A DNA stretch of 64,000 nt from Candidatus Marinacidobacterales bacterium (GTDB taxonomy: Bacteria; Acidobacteriota; Vicinamibacteria; Marinacidobacterales; DATDRI01). The translations under genes and the position numbers were made by a program. Shown in pieces: positions 2,377 to 17,613 of the stretch. The first letter of the stretch is position 1. The number at the start of each line of letters is the position of its first letter. The notes beneath the pieces were generated by a model that had not been told where the DNA came from, did not search any database, and worked only from the letters and a program-made list of their open reading frames with translations. Location of the stretch: positions 5,280,001-5,344,000 of the forward strand of contig CBDCNP010000002.1 of assembly GCA_965219415.1 (NCBI GenBank), given 5' to 3'.

Positions 2377-3577
2377 GGTGCTTCCGCCATCAAGTGTTGC
2401 TACGCGGCTGCGGGCAGTGGTACAGGTGTGGAAGAGACCGGGTTGCGCGCCCTAGTGAGCAGGAAAACCTCGATCCGCAACCACAAAGGAATCGTCGTCG
2501 CCAAGAAGATGTCTCGAAAGGTGAGCCGTCGCGTGGTCAGACCGGCTTGCATAGCCGGAGTTCGGATCTCACGTCCGAACTTCAGAGCTCCGTGCGGTCG
2601 GACGAAGTTGTAATAGCAACGGAGCAACTCCAGGTGCTCATCGAGCCTCTCCGTCGAGCGAGCGTGGGAAAGCGTTCGTCTCGAAAGGTATGCCGAGCTT
2701 TGCCGGATGGTCAGATTCAACCGCTCGATGAACGACGTGTTCAATGTCGAGGAGTCCTCGGAGTTATTGAGCGCGTCTTCGAATCGCCACGCGGCTCCGT
2801 GCAGCACTCTGCGTTCGACCTTGATGATACGATCGTTCCTGCGCGTCTTGAGGACCTGGCCGTAGAGACACGCTGGCCCGAAGAAGCGACGGATGACCTT
2901 CTGGTAGAATTCGAATCCATCCGTGACGATCAAGGGAAGACGCTCGAAATTCATCCGCCTCGAAAGGTCGCGAAACAGAGCGTGAGTGTTCCGGTAGCTT
3001 CGCCTTCCCGTCACCGTCGATGGCCAGAGCCGAGACCAGACCTCGATCGTAACGAAGACCCAACTCGGCGTCTTCTTGTTGCCCGCGAACGTGCGAATCT
3101 CGTCGGCTTGAAGCTCTTCGGCAGCGAAGCCGGCGATCCTTCTGTGATTGAATCGACGACACACTTGGGCTGCCTTCTCGAGCCAGCGGGCGACGGTGTT
3201 CCAGGCAATCCCTTTGATCCGGGAAATCGCAGCAATGCTGACAACCTCGACTCTGAGGAGCGATGACCCCATCGAAAGTAGCTCTTCGATGTTGGAGACG
3301 GTAGTAGGGCGTGCCTTTCGTCGAAGAGAACGTCTTTCCGCACTCGCCGCACCGGTATCGACGGCGTTTCCCGGACCTCGTTCTGTAGAATCCGTTGTGA
3401 ATAATGCTTCTGGAACCGACTTTTCCATACGACGGACATACGGGATTGAGACATCTGCGATTCTTCACTTTGGCTCGGCCCTGACGATGAGAGAACTGTG
3501 TCTTCAGAATTCTGGTTCAAACTCTAGCACGCGAACGGGTTACGCGGCAGCCACCAACACTTCATGGCGGAAGCACC
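2377..3577 (-). mobile_element. IS1-family element (copy A)
   Basis: IRs GGTGCTTCCGCCATCAAGTGTTG (2377-2399) and CAACACTTCATGGCGGAAGCACC (3555-3577); no target duplication; different genes truncated on each side. Confidence 0.9.
2400..3468 (-). CDS. IS1-family transposase (1-nt insertion near 3257)
   Basis: N-terminal Zn ribbon CLNPVC...CGEC, HTH, DDE core QADE / VTDG / SFIERLNLTIR, RTPAMQAGL; copy at 17200 lacks the extra base. Confidence 0.9.
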
Positions 3578-5733: not shown

Positions 5734-5981
5734 GCCTCGTTGTAATCCGCAAAAAAGAAGATCGGCCAGAAGCAGCCGACCATAGCAAGTCTAAAGCGCG
5801 CAATCAACGCTGGATGGACTTTTTGCGGAGCACAACCGGCACTGGTGACCTGACTCCCATTGCCGAAGTGAAGCAAGGTCAATCCAGAGTGGAGGGGAGC
5901 CGTGAACTCCAGGCCTAGCTATGATTCCGAAACGCCCTGGCGCGTGGGTCTTGAGTGCGTTTGTATTTTTGGACACGACGC

Positions 5982-6011
5982 GCGTAGCAACACTTGATGG
6001 CGGAAGGCACC
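5982..6011 (+). repeat. Isolated IS1 right IR remnant
   Basis: GCGTAGCAACACTTGATGGCGGAAGGCACC, the reverse complement of the copy-A end with 1 extra G. Confidence 0.8.
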
Positions 6012-6125
6012 AAACGGGGAGAAACAGATAGGCCGCGCCTACGGAGCACCGCGCCAGCCCTCGACCCTACCGGGGTTGCTACGTTTCTACCATCGGGAAG
6101 CCGCATGAGTATTTTGACCTCACGG
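6012..6125 (+). pseudogene. 3' remnant of an integrase-core (IS3/IS481-like) transposase plus IR
   Basis: GLLRFYHREAA-stop followed by GAGTATTTTGACCTCACGG; similar to the C-terminus at 16003. Confidence 0.6.
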
Positions 6126-6439
6126 CCGTACGTTCGCCACCTCGACTGGAGACGTGACGCTGACTGAGCGGGGTTCTGAATGGCCCCACAAGCGCGGCGC
6201 TACCACCCCGTCGTGTCCAAGAACACGAACGAGCTCAAGACCCGCGCTCACGATGACGCCACAGACCCGGGAGTAGAAAACGGCGCGTCTGTGAATCGGT
6301 GCGTCACCTGCTGACTCGGCTGCCCATCGGCACCGCGAGGTGCTTCCGCCATCAAGTGATGGAATGGACTCCTCCACTGACATAGACGGCATCGATGTGC
6401 CAAAGTCAGTCGAATACGCATCGAAAAGGAGGAGTCCGA

Positions 6440-7471
6440 ATGAAAGATACGACAATCGCTGTGGATCTTGCAAAGAACGTCTTCGAGATTGCCATCTCGG
6501 GAGAAGCGGGGAAGGTGTCCAAGCAACTCCGTGTGAGTCGACCCAAATTGGTGTCGTTCTTTGCCAAACAGAGCGCTGCCACCGTGCTTCTCGAAGCCTG
6601 CGGCTCGGCTCACTTCTGGGCAAGGACGTTCCGAAGGTTGGGACACGACGTCGTCCTGCTCCCACCTCACCTCGTGAGGCCGTATCGACGCGGGAGCAAG
6701 AACGACCGCGCCGACACGAAGGCGTTGCTCGAGGCCTACAGGAACGAGGAGCTTCTTCCCGTACCCATCAAGTCCGTGCACCAGCACACCCTCGCTGCGC
6801 TCCATCGCCTGCGCTCAGGATGGCTCTCCACACGGACCGCACGCATCAATGCCGTACGCGGGCTCCTGCGCGAACTCGGATTCATCATCCCAAAGGGCGC
6901 TCACTTCGTCGTGCCCGCCCTCTTCGAACTCGTCGAAGACGCTGATTCTGATTTGCCCGACGTGCTCCGTTCGCATCTCCGTGATGCCTGCTCCGAGATT
7001 CGAGAACTCAAGGACAAGTGCGCTAGCATCGAGCACGAGCTCAAGGCGCTCACCAAGCAGCTTCCTGAAGTCCAACGACTTCTCGCCATTCCCGGCATCG
7101 GACTTCTGGCCGCGACCGCCATCGTGGGCTTCGTCGGCGATCTTCGCCGCTTCCCATCGGGGCGCCGCTTCTCGAGCTACCTCGGCCTAGTTCCCAAGGA
7201 AAACTCCAGTGGCGACATTCGCCGCCTCGGACGCATCACCAAGCGTGGCGACTCCTACCTCCGTATGCTCCTCACCCAGGGCGGGCGCGCCGTGCTCCGC
7301 GCGGCGAACGTCAGCAAGAGCCCGCCCGACAAGCTCCGCGCCTGGGCTCGGAAGGTCCACCGCTCGCGGGGACACAACAAGGCCGTGATTGCTGTCGCCA
7401 ACAAACTCGCCCGGATCGTCTGGGCCGTCTCCACCCGCGAGAGTGAATTCCAGTCGCCGGTGGCCGCTTAG
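6440..7471 (+). CDS. IS110-family transposase/recombinase
   Basis: AGGAGG RBS; DEDD motifs AVDLAK, LLEACG, KNDRAD; GLVPKENSSG serine loop; GRITKRGDSYLR. Confidence 0.95.
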   Translation: MKDTTIAVDLAKNVFEIAISGEAGKVSKQLRVSRPKLVSFFAKQSAATVLLEACGSAHFWARTFRRLGHDVVLLPPHLVRPYRRGSKNDRADTKALLEAYRNEELLPVPIKSVHQHTLAALHRLRSGWLSTRTARINAVRGLLRELGFIIPKGAHFVVPALFELVEDADSDLPDVLRSHLRDACSEIRELKDKCASIEHELKALTKQLPEVQRLLAIPGIGLLAATAIVGFVGDLRRFPSGRRFSSYLGLVPKENSSGDIRRLGRITKRGDSYLRMLLTQGGRAVLRAANVSKSPPDKLRAWARKVHRSRGHNKAVIAVANKLARIVWAVSTRESEFQSPVAA

Positions 7472-7516
7472 ATTTAGAGGCTCCACTTTCGTGTTTTCCT
7501 TTTTCCCTTCCAAAAG

Positions 7517-7698
7517 AGGCTGCGACGATACCCATCCAACTGATGGCGTACCGGTCGGACCGGCGCGGGGTCAAGCCAATAGCAACACTGGCCCTAAGAG
7601 GTCGTTCAAAGTGATTGGCTCCTCGCGCGCGGATTTTCCATCATGGCCCGGAGCACCCAAGACGCTCCTCACTGAGGCCGAAGATACGTTTGCAGTCT
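7517..7698 (+). ncRNA. Predicted bridge RNA/seekRNA of the IS1111-type element
   Basis: Closing stem AGGCTGCGA/TTGCAGTCT; target loop closed by AGCCAAT/ATTGGCT containing TAGCAACACT and AAGTG; donor loop containing TTCCATCAT and AGATA. Confidence 0.8.
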
Positions 7699-8462
7699 GA
7701 CCCACTCGTCACGACGCGATGGATGCGCAGCTTCGATGGAAGATTTATTAAGAAAGGGGCGTGACTAGAAAGAAAGGGGCTTGACTAGAGGAGTCCAGAT
7801 ATGTTGCTACACGGCTGCGGGCAGTGGTACAGGTGCGGAAGAGACCGGGTTGCGCGCCCCAGTGAGCAGGAAAACCTCGATCCGCGACCACAAAGGAATC
7901 GTCGTCGCCAAGAAGATGTCTCGAAAGGTGAGCCGTCGCGTGGTCAGACCGGCCTGCATAGCCGGAGTTCGGATCTCACGTCCGAACTTCAGAGCTCCGT
8001 GCGGTCGGACGAAGTTGTAATAGCAACGGAGCAACTCCAGGTGCTCATCGAGCCTCTCCGTCGAGCGAGCGTGGGAAAGCGTTCGTCTCGAAAGGTATGC
8101 CGAGCTTTGCCGGATGGTCAGATTCAACCGCTCGATGAACGACGTGTTCAATGTCGAGGAGTCCTCGGAGTTATTGAGCGCGTCTTCGAATCGCCACGCG
8201 GCTCCGTGCAGCGCTCTCCGTTCGACCTTGATGATACGATTGTTCCTGCGCGTCTTGAGGACCTGGCCGTAGAGACACGCTGGCCCGAAGAAGCGACGGA
8301 TGACCTTCTGGTAGAATTCGAATCCATCCGTGACGATCAAGGGAAGATGCCCGAAATTCATCCGCCTCGAAAGGTCGCGAAACAAAGCGTGAGTGTTCCG
8401 GTAGCTTCGCCTTCCCGTCACCGTTGATGGCCAGAGCCGAGACCAGACCTCGATCGTAACGA

Positions 8463-9548
8463 GCAGCCTTTAACCAAGACATGGTGGGAGCGAAGCTCAG
8501 CCTAGGTCCACGCTCGGCGATACTGGGCCAGACCCCCTTCTCCCTACGGAGTTTTGTGAACGACGTCGCGGTGAGTGTTTTCGAGACGGTGCGCAAGGGC
8601 AATACGGCTTTCCCGTTCACGCGCGGCGATACGGACGAAGGGGCCTTCCTGCGGCCGATGGTTGCGACGCTTGGCACTCGCGAGCCTTTTTGGGCGATGG
8701 TGGTCCCGGCTTTCGGCAATACCGATCACTTGGTCTTTAACGATGGACGGGTTGGAGTCCCAGCGGTGTCCCTAGACAACTGGCCGGATCCGTATATCCA
8801 TTCCAGTGACGACGATCTTTGGCAAGTCGACCCGACTCAACTCGAGAGAAACGCCTTCGTCGTGGCCGCGACGGCTTACACCGTCGCTTCGTTGGGAGAG
8901 CCCCACGTCGACCGCCTCGCGGTCTTGCTGCAGGGAGGGGCGCAGACAAGGCTAGGACGAGACGGGGCGTCGGCGCTGGCGCGTCTCGTAGACGACTCGG
9001 CCGGATCCATTTCCTCTCGGTACAAGGATGCCGAGATGCTCCTCTCGGTGTCCACCGCTCGAGAGATCGCTACCATCGATTCCGCGCTGGTCCTGGTTTC
9101 CCCCGGCGGTGCCGGTGAGAGGCTGTTGAAGCAAGTCCGGGCACGGGTGAGCAACCTCGGTCGGACGCTTCAAGAAGACGTGGGTGCGTTCTACGAGGAG
9201 CGAACCGGCCAAGCTCCCAGGAGCGAGCGTTCCCCCCATGAAAAGGCGGCGGCCGAGAGAGTGCCGGAAAGGACGATGTCCCTAGCGGAGAGTTTGGAAA
9301 AAATGATGCGGAGAGGAGGCCCGGGTGCTGACATCGAAGGGTTGCATCGTCTTTATCAAACCGAGGTGCGCAACCTGGTTGATGGAAAACGGACCGTGCT
9401 CGATATCTACCGAACGGTGAGGGCGGCCTCACTCTCGGCCGGCGAGTGGTACTACAGTCCGGTCGAGCTCGACGATGTGGTCGCGGTGCTCGAAGCTTCC
9501 GAGAAGGCGGGCGCTATCCGCTTTAGAGGCGGTGATAGTAATCAGTAA
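8463..9548 (+). pseudogene. M28-family peptidase, C-terminal half (N-half at 17614-18552)
   Basis: AAFNQDMVGA, GNTDH.VF, WPDPYIHSSDD motifs; begins at the IS1 junction. Confidence 0.8.
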
Positions 9549-17090: not shown

Positions 17091-17613
17091 GGTGCTTCCG
17101 CAATTAAGTGCTGGCGGCCAACCCCTAACCCGTCTGCGTGCTAGAGTTAGAGCCAGAATTCTGAAGACACAGTTCTCTCATCGTCAGGGCCGAGCCGAAG
17201 TGAAGAATCGCAGATGTCTCAATCCCGCATGTCCGTCGTATGGAAAAGTCGGTTCCAGAAGTATTATTCACAACGGATTCTACAGAACAAGGTCCGGGAA
17301 ACGCCGTCGATACCGGTGCGGCGAGTGCGGAAAGACGTTCTCTTCGACGAAAGGCACGCCCTACTACCGTCTCCAACATCGAAGAGCTACTTTCGATGGG
17401 GTCATCGCTCTCAGAGTCGAGGGTGTCAGCATTTCCTCGATTTTCCGGATCAAAGGGATTGCCTGGAACACCGTCGCCCGCTGGCTCGAGAAGGCAGCCC
17501 AAGTGTGTCGTCGATTCAATCACAGAAGGATCGCTGGCTTCGCTGCCAAAGAGCTTCAAGCCGACGAGATTAGCACGTCCGCGGGCAACAAGAAGACGCC
17601 GAGTTGGGTCTTC
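17091..17613 (+). mobile_element. IS1 copy B, 5' half (inverted)
   Basis: IR GGTGCTTCCGCAATTAAGTG; transposase N-terminus from 17200 ends at SWVF, exactly where the 6339-8462 half begins. Confidence 0.9.

What the first reader, a model, noticed from the sequence alone, without database searches (positions are those of the whole stretch)
6339..7810. IS110 bridge-RNA element programmed to insert into an IS1 terminal repeat, with both guide loops readable
Seen: the IS1111-type element splits the IS1 end CATCAAG-TG-TTGCTAC at a TG core. Its downstream ncRNA has a loop closed by AGCCAAT/ATTGGCT. This loop contains TAGCAACACT (7580-7589, a 10-nt match to the bottom strand of the target) and AAGTG (7609-7613, top strand). 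A second loop contains TTCCATCAT (7636-7644) and AGATA (7682-7686), matching the two strands of the predicted circle junction CCAGATA-TG-ATGGAA. Known: IS110/IS1111 recombinases use bridge/seekRNAs, and IS4321/IS5075 target Tn21-family IRs. Inference: this is a natural hyper-parasite of IS1 and a ready-made new recombinase/guide/target set.
Basis: partly seen in the sequence, partly recalled or inferred. Interest (0 to 1): 0.88.

Follow-up and report, generated by a model that had tools for sequence, protein, structure and literature searches.

The report
RNA-guided IS that targets IS1-family ends
This is a small jumping gene of the known IS110/IS1111 type whose own guide RNA directs it into one end of another jumping gene (an IS1-family element), so it is a clear new example of a known mechanism and not a new one.

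Summary

- **The element.** Window 6359-7803 is a 1445-bp IS1111-group element. It has a 343-aa DEDD transposase, 9-bp subterminal inverted repeats and a 332-bp 3' non-coding region.
- **Copies and target.** The genome holds about 30 full copies, 16 of them identical. 30 of 32 right ends abut TTGCTA. All 33 left ends follow the outer 20 bp of an IS1-family terminal repeat, always in the same orientation. Only 1 of 323 sister repeat tips that lack TTGCTA is occupied.
- **The RNA.** A conserved fold (7517-7700) carries two internal loops. The first matches both strands of the target and the second matches the joined element ends.
- **Covariation.** In relatives with 41-94% transposase identity the scaffold is kept. 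The right-target guide matches its own flank (8 of 8 letters scored) in all six elements compared; the other three guides track their own DNA less sharply. One relative, on a Salmonella plasmid, sits in the IS903 terminal repeat.
- **Verdict.** RNA-guided targeting is well supported but inferred; no transcript, circle or activity was shown. The mechanism and "parasite of a mobile element" behaviour are already known (IS4321/IS5075, IS1111/QMITE2).

The parts
6339..6358 (+). Outer 20 bp of the terminal inverted repeat of the host IS1-family element (left half of the target; the TG core is 6357-6358).
   Evidence: The same 20-mer (at most 1 mismatch) precedes all 30 full copies and all 33 left junctions. 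The DNA to its left is different in 32 of 33 cases.
6359..7803 (+). IS1111-group (IS110 family) insertion sequence, 1445 bp when one TG core is counted with it.
   Evidence: About 30 full copies in the genome, of which 16 are 100% identical and 8 differ at one base. An empty/filled paralogue pair defines the borders.
6359..6374 (+). Left end: 7-nt extension ATGGAAT (6359-6365) plus the left subterminal inverted repeat GGACTCCTC (6366-6374).
   Evidence: Read. GGACTCCTC is the reverse complement of 7788-7796.
6440..7471 (+). DEDD transposase/recombinase, 343 aa, carrying the motif GLVPKENSSG.
   Evidence: NF033542 'IS110 family RNA-guided transposase' scores 302.9 bits against a cut-off of 140. 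Pfam PF01548 and PF02371 both match. Distant PDB matches to the ISCro4 and IS621 transposases. 45.9% identity to an ISPa25-family transposase.
7517..7700 (+). Predicted bridge/seekRNA: an outer stem (7517-7523 with 7692-7698) encloses the target-binding and donor-binding loops.
   Evidence: Fold z-score -2.5. Consensus fold of 5 lineages. On 17 distinct sequences 92.7% of cells are paired, against at most 48% when partners are slid, and 12 pairs change on both sides. No Rfam family matched. Model R1 hits the ISPa25 non-coding region at 70.5 bits.
7574..7620 (+). Target-binding loop. The stem AGCCAAU/AUUGGCU encloses the 5' guide UAGCAACACU (7580-7589, complementary to the top strand AGTG|TTGCTA), the hairpin 7590-7603, and the 3' guide within GUUCAAAGUG (7604-7613, same sense as AAG-TG).
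   Evidence: The 5' guide matches its own flank in all 6 elements compared (8 letters on the diagonal, 2-6 off it).
7634..7688 (+). Donor-binding loop. The 5' guide UUCCAUCAU (7636-7644) is complementary to A-TG-ATGGAA of the joined ends. The hairpin is 7645-7679. The 3' guide is AGAUA(CG) (7682-7688, same sense as the right end AGATA-TG).
   Evidence: The left-end variants ATGGAA, ATGGGA and ATGAGA are met by UUCCAU, UCCCAU and UCUCAU, and the right-end variants by AGAUACG, AUACACG and AUCUAUG.
7750..7789 (+). 20-bp tandem duplication in the right end (7750-7769 and 7770-7789), each unit with a -35-like GTGACT or TTGACT.
   Evidence: Read. It is absent from 2 copies in this genome and from the relatives.
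7788..7803 (+). Right subterminal inverted repeat GAGGAGTCC (7788-7796) plus the extension AGATA and the TG core (7797-7803).
   Evidence: Read. 32 right ends of this form are in the genome.
7804..8462 (+). Rest of the host IS1-family element: the right half of the target TTGCTAC (7804-7810), then element positions 21-679. Its transposase lies on the minus strand and the copy is truncated at 8462.
   Evidence: 98.2% identical to the intact copy at 2377-3577. ORF 7807-8421 (-).
2377..3577 (-). Intact 1201-bp reference copy of the host IS1-family element, with an unoccupied target at 2377-2403.
   Evidence: NF033558 (IS1 family) scores 57.6 bits, below its cut-off of 100, and PF03400 scores 20.4 bits, below its cut-off of 24.1. 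Homologues at 67-96% identity carry PF03400, and nine are named 'IS1 family transposase'.
5984..6011 (-). Unoccupied end of another element with the same repeat. It has one extra C in the outer part, and CATCAAGTGTTGCTAC is intact.

Best explanation
Window 6359-7803 is an active or recently active IS1111-group insertion sequence.

**Proposed mechanism.**
- Its 3' non-coding region encodes a bridge/seekRNA of about 180 nt with two internal loops.
- In the first loop, the 5' strand UAGCAACACU pairs with the top strand of the target (AG-TG-TTGCTA). The 3' strand (A)AGUG pairs with the bottom strand left of and across the TG core.
- In the second loop, UUCCAUCAU and AGAUA(CG) pair in the same way with the joined right and left ends of an excised circle (CCAGATA-TG-ATGGAA).
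- The DEDD recombinase then exchanges strands at the TG core.

**Consequence.** The element lands 20 bp inside the transposase-distal terminal repeat of an IS1-family element and its roughly 245-bp MITE derivatives, in one orientation. It splits that repeat and probably disables that end.

**What is shown.** Site and orientation specificity, the RNA scaffold, and guide/flank covariation.

**What is inferred.** Transcription of the RNA, the circular intermediate, catalysis, and inactivation of the host element.
For: **Family.** NF033542 scores 302.9 bits; PF01548 and PF02371 both match. The protein is 343 aa with GLVPKENSSG. There are 9-bp subterminal repeats, and the non-coding stretch is 81 bp upstream against 332 bp downstream. 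These are the IS1111 traits listed in PMC11187229 (sections read) and PMC11208160 (passages read).

**Specificity.**
- 30 of 32 right ends abut TTGCTA, and 33 of 33 left junctions follow the repeat tip. 32 of those 33 have different outside DNA.
- Among 403 unoccupied tips, 81 are TTGCTA and 322 are other classes (TTGGTGA 141, TTGGCGG 76, and so on). Only 1 non-TTGCTA tip is occupied. The odds ratio is 60 and Fisher p = 2e-17, although the copies are kin and not independent.
- No reversed insertion appears among the classes.
- An empty/filled pair was found.

**Recency.**
- 16 identical copies and intact reading frames.
- The host flanks carry their own differences, and at least three host element types are hit.

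**RNA.** See and the shuffle test.

**Covariation.**
- L047: guide UAACAAUCG with flank G|ATTGTTA.
- G009: CAACUGCG with CG|CAGTTG.
- L069: AAGGAUCG and GUCUUUG with GTCTTTG...CG|ATCCTT.
- L196: UUUAUUCAA and GCUUUGUUG with GCTTTGTT...TG|AATAAA.
- For the right-target guide the matrix diagonal is 8, against 2-6 off the diagonal.

**Insertions outside the repeat in relatives.** These keep only the guide-matched letters: L049 CAAGTG|TTGCT and L050 TCAAGTG|TTGCT.

**Guide order.** The top-strand complement lies 5' of the bottom-strand match, as reported for IS1111 seekRNAs.
Against: - No transcript was shown. The RNA-library contigs are fragmentary, may be DNA, and come partly from relatives.
- No sigma-70-like promoter was found, and I could read no convincing junction promoter.
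- No Rfam family matched.
- The left-target guide is only 5 nt here. It is poorly matched in L047 (3 nt) and its matrix diagonal barely exceeds the off-diagonal values.
- Core letters disagree in places. The DBL 3' guide reads CG where the right end reads TG. The L047 and G009 guides read CG where a junction reads TG.
- In the 94%-identity group the left-end change A>G is met only by wobble pairs, not by a compensating change.
- L147 and L193 have scaffold matches whose guides do not fit their present flanks.
- One copy sits at TTGGCGG.
Confidence: 0.88

Rival explanations
1. Only the first loop guides DNA (a seekRNA in the narrow sense). Under this reading the matches of the second loop to the element ends are by-products of end and subterminal-repeat conservation, and the ends are recognised by the protein.
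For: For ISEc11 an 82-nt seekRNA carrying the two target matches was sufficient for movement (PMC11187229, section read). Left and right ends are nearly the same across the close relatives, so the donor matrices discriminate poorly. In the 94% group the left-end and guide changes give wobble pairs only. RNAalifold pairs parts of the two donor segments with each other.
Against: In the three distant lineages the donor segments change together with the ends: UCCCAU with ATGGGA, UCUCAU with ATGAGA, AUACACG with ATACA-CG, and AUCUAUG with ATCTA-TG. Durrant et al. report donor complementarity in IS1111 bridge RNAs (passage read). A 9-nt match occurred in 144 of 5000 shuffles.
Confidence: 0.1
2. The copies multiplied mainly as passengers: one early insertion into an IS1-family element was then spread by transposition of the composite, not by about 30 separate RNA-guided insertions.
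For: The outer 20 bp of the host repeat stays at the far side, so a composite could in principle still be moved. Two occupied sites share the same outside flank, indicating a segmental duplication (33 junctions, 32 distinct flanks).
Against: The inserts are identical or differ at one base (24 of 30), while their host elements are of at least three types (1.2-kb IS, about 245-bp MITE, and a third type) and carry their own differences right next to the junction. An empty/filled pair exists. Relatives have insertions outside any repeat at CAAGTG|TTGCT.
Confidence: 0.05
3. The transposase recognises the repeat DNA directly, and the RNA complementarities are coincidental.
For: The target lies in a conserved repeat, so within this one genome any recogniser would give the same pattern. 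No RNA was detected here.
Against: The right-target guide follows its own flank in all six elements compared. Both matches together arose in 1 of 5000 shuffles. The family mechanism has been shown by experiment for ISEc11, ISKpn4, ISPst6, ISPa11 and IS621 (papers read).
Confidence: 0.03

Closest known systems
IS1111-group elements with a 3' seekRNA/bridge RNA (ISEc11, ISKpn4, ISPst6, ISPa11; ISPa25 as the nearest named relative)
   Same: - DEDD transposase of 330-350 aa with GL-P----SG.
- Subterminal inverted repeats and a long downstream non-coding region.
- One fixed site and orientation.
- The top-strand complement lies 5' of the bottom-strand match.
- Model R1 built here matches the ISPa25 non-coding region at 70.5 bits, E = 4e-14.
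- The transposase is 45.9% identical to an ISPa25-family protein.
   Different: - A different target: an IS1-family terminal repeat, not attC, REP or a linear site.
- A different host phylum; relatives are titled Candidatus Marinacidobacterales.
- The subterminal repeat has only 9 perfect bp.
- The right extension is 5 nt plus the core, against the usual 3 nt.
- Nothing has been shown by experiment.
IS4321/IS5075 (target the 38-bp terminal repeats of Tn21-family transposons; Partridge & Hall 2003, seen only as a reference entry and otherwise recalled)
   Same: IS1111-group elements that insert at one position and in one orientation inside the terminal inverted repeat of another transposable element.
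   Different: Their host is a Tn3-family transposon in Enterobacteria. Here it is an IS1-family IS plus its MITEs, at much higher copy number (33 occupied of 436 repeat tips).
IS1111 of Coxiella burnetii inserting into QMITE2 (PMC5896051, passages read)
   Same: An IS1111-family element uses a sequence inside a multicopy MITE as its target: 20 of 21 IS1111 copies lie in QMITE2.
   Different: The QMITE2 target is an internal GTAG palindrome and not the terminal repeat. No autonomous partner IS is targeted.
Unnamed 'IS110 family transposase' element on Salmonella plasmid NZ_MG874043.1 (locus L196)
   Same: - 41.4% identical transposase.
- R1 match at 31.3 bits.
- It splits the IS903 terminal repeat GGCTTTGT-TG-AATAAATCG, with guides UUUAUUCAA and GCUUUGUUG.
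- It therefore shows the same strategy against an IS end.
   Different: The host IS is of the IS5 family, in Enterobacteria. The left junction core reads TA. I found no paper describing it in the listing, which is a limited search.
IS621 bridge RNA (IS110 group)
   Same: Two internal loops, each with two guide segments flanking a distal hairpin. The core dinucleotide is shared by target and donor. The RNA is about 180 nt.
   Different: In IS621 the RNA lies 5' of the gene and the guide order is reversed (abstract). Its core is CT (recalled), against TG/CG here. Only the C-terminal domain aligns, at E = 9e-8.

Membership tests
IS110 family, IS1111 group | DEDD (RuvC-like) N-terminal domain plus a Transposase_20 C-terminal domain | tested here: met
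   PF01548 at 45.9 bits and PF02371 at 85.5 bits. NF033542 at 302.9 bits, above its cut-off of 140.
IS110 family, IS1111 group | Transposase of 330-350 aa with the motif GL-P----S(T)G | tested here: met
   343 aa, with GLVPKENSSG read in the translation. The criterion comes from PMC11187229 section 6.
IS110 family, IS1111 group | Subterminal inverted repeats (usually 11-13 bp; 7-17 bp in Durrant et al.) | tested here: met
   GGACTCCTC at 6366-6374 pairs with GAGGAGTCC at 7788-7796: 9 perfect bp, about 12 of 15 if extended.
IS110 family, IS1111 group | Terminal extensions of 7 (or 6) nt on the left and 3 nt on the right | tested here: inconclusive
   The left extension is 7 nt (ATGGAAT). The right extension is AGATA plus TG, that is 5 or 7 nt depending on where the core is counted.
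IS110 family, IS1111 group | The long non-coding region lies downstream of the transposase gene | tested here: met
   81 nt upstream (6359-6439) against 332 nt downstream (7472-7803).
IS110 family, IS1111 group | One target sequence, one orientation | tested here: met
   30 of 32 right ends and 33 of 33 left junctions fit the target, with no reversed class.
seekRNA / bridge RNA | [quoted passage not shown] | tested here: met
   7580-7589 is complementary to AGTGTTGCTA. 7609-7613 equals AAGTG. The two overlap at (A)GTG. The order is as described.
seekRNA / bridge RNA | The guides change with the target or donor while the scaffold is kept (natural reprogramming) | tested here: met
   Six elements were compared. 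The right-target guide diagonal is 8, against 2-6 off the diagonal. The left-target and donor guides are weaker.
seekRNA / bridge RNA | The RNA is transcribed, binds the transposase and is required for movement | not testable with these tools
   Only contigs of RNA libraries were available. These are fragmentary and are not proof of transcription.
seekRNA / bridge RNA | Circular intermediate with abutted ends | not tested
   No raw reads were on offer, and no joint of that kind appears.
seekRNA / bridge RNA | Match to a curated RNA family model | tested here: not met
   No Rfam 15 family matched 5800-8600 at E <= 1 apart from a chance miRNA hit. I did not establish whether Rfam holds a model for IS1111 bridge RNAs.
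IS1 family (the host element) | DDE_Tnp_IS1 transposase | tested here: inconclusive
   The copy at 2400-3428 scores below the cut-offs: NF033558 at 57.6 bits against 100, and PF03400 at 20.4 bits against 24.1. Homologues at 67-96% identity carry PF03400, and nine of the 120 listed are named 'IS1 family transposase' by JGI.
IS1 family (the host element) | Terminal inverted repeats bounding a short element | tested here: met
   The 1201-bp copy at 2377-3577 has matching ends GGTGCTTCCGCCAT(C/G)AAGTGTTG.... 436 such tips are in the genome.

The most novel reading that the evidence does not exclude
The element and the IS1-family elements may be locked in an intragenomic arms race. About a quarter of the target-bearing repeat ends (30 of 111) are split by the RNA-guided element. 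The abundant sister sub-families, whose repeats differ exactly in the guide-matched letters (TTGGTGA, TTGGCGG, TTGGTGG; 1 of 323 occupied), could be escape variants. Retargeted relatives (L047, G009) could be counter-moves. On this reading bridge-RNA elements would act as sequence-specific suppressors of other transposons, with natural guide/target co-evolution visible within one bacterial order.
Probability: 0.12. Interest if true: 0.6.

Novelty: new member of a known kind. Interest (0 to 1): 0.38.

Why it matters
The find adds a well-defined natural recombinase, guide RNA, donor and target set from Acidobacteriota, with an unusually rich built-in specificity record:
- 30 hits among 111 cognate sites;
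- 1 hit among 323 near-cognate sites that differ only in right-target positions 4-7;
- insertions outside the repeat in relatives that keep just CAAGTG|TTGCT;
- three naturally retargeted relatives.

This is useful for people who model guide tolerance of IS1111-type bridge systems. It also shows that targeting the ends of other insertion sequences recurs, both here and at IS903. It does not change what is known about the mechanism.

Tried and rejected
- **Rfam scan of 5800-8600.** Nothing relevant matched.
- **Promoter and terminator scan.** No sigma-70-like promoter was found. By eye, the joined ends give TTGACT, 13 nt, then TATGAT, a spacing too short to be called a junction promoter, so I make no such claim.
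- **Expression.**
  - Four RNA-labelled runs hold pieces at 90-100% likeness. All are contigs, the cover of 7517-7700 is patchy, and DNA carry-over cannot be excluded. This shows neither transcription nor its absence.
  - One contig matched 7550-7570 and 7674-7700 with 99 other letters between. That hints at a relative with other guides, but the letters were not shown.
- **L047 variant.** It is single-copy in its genome, so its target rests on one site.
- **L147, L193, L194, L179, L165.** These have scaffold matches without a fitting flank or without a transposase. I treated them as decayed or rearranged and left them out of the guide/flank matrix. That matrix used 6 elements chosen because both ends could be located.
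- looked at 16 loci and at 10, out of the 70 loci returned.
- It scanned L031-L099 and printed 43 right ends. 18 abut TTGCTA and 3 abut TTGCT. The rest are tandem or internal junctions or other sites.
- **Literature.**
  - Searches turned up no paper on an IS110-family element that targets an IS1-family or IS903 repeat. These are word searches of an open-access library.
The target tables and logos of PMC11187229 and Supplementary Table 5 of PMC11208160 may list such cases.
Full report
**What is there.**
- The 20-mer GGTGCTTCCGCCATCAAGTG (6339-6358) is followed by ATGGAATGGACTCCTCC...
- At the other side ...GAGGAGTCCAGATATG ends at 7803 and is followed by TTGCTAC (7804-7810).
- Between them lies an ORF of 343 aa (6440-7471). 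It matches PF01548 and PF02371 and NCBIfam NF033542 'IS110 family RNA-guided transposase' at 302.9 bits, above the cut-off of 140.
- The element shows the IS1111-group traits described in PMC11187229 (sections read) and PMC11208160 (passages read). These are a 330-350-aa transposase with GL-P----SG (here GLVPKENSSG), subterminal inverted repeats (GGACTCCTC 6366-6374 with GAGGAGTCC 7788-7796) and a long non-coding region downstream (332 nt against 81 nt upstream).
- The right terminal extension (AGATA plus the TG core) is longer than the usual 3 nt.

**The target, and whether it exceeds chance.**
- The window's genome (8.05 Mb, 3 contigs) holds about 30 full-length copies. 16 are identical over all 1445 bp and 8 more differ at one base. 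The reading frames are intact.
- All 30 have the same left 20-mer, with at most 1 mismatch, and unrelated DNA outside it.
- A genome-wide count found 436 tips of this repeat (20-mer, at most 2 mismatches). 33 are followed by the element's left end, with 32 different outside flanks, and 403 are unoccupied.
- Of 32 right ends, 28 abut TTGCTAC, 1 TTGCTAA and 1 TTGCTAG. One abuts TTGGCGG and 1 is an internal tandem junction.
- Unoccupied tips continue as TTGCTA in 81 cases. In 322 cases they continue otherwise (TTGGTGA 141, TTGGCGG 76, TTGGTGG 34, TTGGTAA 26, and others).
- About 27% of cognate ends (30 of 111) are therefore occupied, against 1 of 323 near-cognate ends. The odds ratio is 60 and p = 2e-17, although the copies are related and this is not a clean probability.
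- No tip is followed by the reverse complement of the right end, so orientation is fixed.
- A duplicated segment gives an empty and a filled version of the same site.

**The host element.**
- The repeat belongs to a 1201-bp element, with an intact copy at window 2377-3577, and to MITE-like derivatives of about 245 bp with the same ends.
- Its transposase hits the IS1 models only below their cut-offs.
- Homologues at 67-96% identity carry PF03400, and nine of the 120 listed are named 'IS1 family transposase'.
- 'IS1 family' is therefore reasonable, but E. coli IS1 it is not.
- The targeted end is the one next to the 3' end of the host transposase gene. The other end reads ...AAGTGTTGGTGG and is essentially not used.
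- The copy interrupted in the window is itself truncated at 8462. Its other half lies inverted at 17613-17091.

**The RNA.**
- Folding 7517-7700 gives an outer stem and a first stem (GCGCGGGG.../...CCUCGCGC plus AGCCAAU/AUUGGCU). That stem closes an internal loop with UAGCAACACU on the 5' side, a distal hairpin, and GUUCAAAGUG on the 3' side.
- A second internal loop has UUUUCCAUCAU and GAAGAUACG around a GGCC...GGCC hairpin.
- In the non-coding region without its tip, the 10-nt target match was reached in 38 of 5000 dinucleotide shuffles. The 9-nt match to the joined ends was reached in 144, and both together in 1.
- Rfam has no matching family.

**Comparative test.**
- Relatives were collected by protein and with a covariance model built here.
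- The scaffold is conserved and covaries. On 17 distinct sequences 92.7% of cells pair, against at most 48% when partners are slid. 12 pairs change on both sides against 3-5 in the slid controls, and 0 of 500 shuffles reach the observed values. That alignment is fitted to the model, which favours the structure.
- The decisive point is that the loop letters change with the flanks:
  - L047 (about 90% nucleotide identity): UAACAAUCG next to ...G|ATTGTTA.
  - G009, two copies (61% protein identity): CAACUGCG and GUCCGGACG next to GTCCAGATG...CG|CAGTTG.
  - L069 (46%): AAGGAUCG and GUCUUUG next to GTCTTTG...CG|ATCCTT.
  - L196, on a Salmonella plasmid (41%): UUUAUUCAA and GCUUUGUUG next to GCTTTGTT...TG|AATAAA.
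- In a 6 x 6 matrix the right-target guide matches its own flank with 8 letters and the others with 2-6.
- The left-target guide is weaker: the diagonal is 5, 5, 3, 5, 7, 8 against 2-5 off the diagonal.
- The donor guides follow the end variants (ATGGAA, ATGGGA, ATGAGA; AGATA, ATACA, ATCTA) in the distant lineages but discriminate little among close ones.
- Insertions outside any repeat in relatives keep only the guide-matched letters, namely CAAGTG|TTGCT in L049 and L050.
- The order, with the top-strand complement 5' of the bottom-strand match, is the one reported for IS1111 seekRNAs.
- The model also hits the non-coding region of an ISPa25-family element at 70.5 bits. The seekRNA paper discusses ISPa25 beside the experimentally studied ISKpn4 and ISPst6.

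**Results against the reading, or left unexplained.**
- No transcript, circle or activity was shown. The RNA-library contigs are patchy and may be DNA.
- No promoter was recognised.
- Core letters are not always matched: the guide reads CG where a junction reads TG in the DBL 3' guide here, and in L047 and G009.
- In the 94% group a left-end change and a guide change give only wobble pairs.
- L147 and L193 have scaffold matches whose guides do not fit their present surroundings.
- One copy in this genome lies at TTGGCGG.

**Comparison with what is known.** The mechanism (RNA-guided DEDD recombination), its placement in the right end of IS1111-group elements and natural retargeting are all published. 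Insertion into another mobile element also has precedents:
- IS4321/IS5075 in Tn21-family repeats. I saw this title only as a reference entry; the details are recalled.
- IS1111 in QMITE2 of Coxiella.
- An unnamed IS1111-type element that splits the IS903 terminal repeat on a Salmonella plasmid. I checked it against an uninterrupted IS903B end.

My word searches found no paper on an IS1-family or IS903 repeat as target.

**Verdict.**
- This is a new member of a known kind. Its value is a natural specificity data set: cognate against near-cognate repeat tips, off-repeat sites, and retargeted relatives.
- My confidence that it is an IS1111-type element guided by its own RNA into the IS1-family repeat is 0.88, and I score interest at 0.38.
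- The boldest reading still open is an arms race between the IS1-family sub-families and the RNA-guided element (probability about 0.12).

Noticed in passing
window 7802-8462 and 17091-17613: The host IS1-family copy is split. Positions 19-679 lie at 7802-8462, and positions 678-1201 lie about 9 kb away in inverted orientation (94.8% identity). This suggests an inversion or recombination between IS copies.
   Followed up: partly
L196 (NZ_MG874043.1), locus positions about 1115-2500: An unnamed IS1111-type element on a Salmonella plasmid splits the IS903 terminal repeat GGCTTTGT-TG-AATAAATCG. It carries matching guides UUUAUUCAA and GCUUUGUUG. An uninterrupted IS903B end was checked in L197.
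   Followed up: yes
G000:C3:3315125-3316853; L031, L039, L040, L044-L046, L056: There are tandem partial copies. Right ends are joined to internal points of another copy, for example to ATTGCTGTCGCC (window 7388, after ...GTG, a look-alike of the target) or to the start of the RNA module at GGCTGCGACG (window 7518). A 2026 preprint reports such tandem non-coding units as common in IS110 loci.
   Followed up: partly
window 7750-7789: A 20-bp tandem duplication in the right end doubles a -35-like GTGACT/TTGACT. It is present in most copies in this genome but absent from 2 of them and from the relatives.
   Followed up: no
genomes G002, G003 versus G035, G017, G019: The two same-genus genomes searched have no transposase match; G002 has one 5'-truncated RNA/right-end remnant at a TTGCTAC site. 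Genomes of another family in the same order carry copies at 93-98% protein identity in the same repeat. This pattern suggests horizontal spread or recent expansion.
   Followed up: partly
window 7550-7700, run X18 record 14: A contig from a marine-sediment RNA library matches both flanks of the guide region, with 99 different letters between. It may be a relative with other guides. The letters were not shown.
   Followed up: no
G000:C3 left flanks at 4353104, 5075522, 5113834, 5599450 and 5122618: Several IS1-family/MITE ends sit next to the same outside sequence (...GTGCCAAAACTCGGCCCTTTTGAAATAGACC). The host elements therefore seem to be nested in yet another repeat family.
   Followed up: no
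window 2400-3468 (-): The intact-looking IS1-family copy has its zinc-finger N-terminus (ORF 2764-3468) and its catalytic part (ORF 2400-3428) in different frames, whereas homologues are single 355-aa proteins. This may be a frameshift, either programmed or a defect.
   Followed up: no
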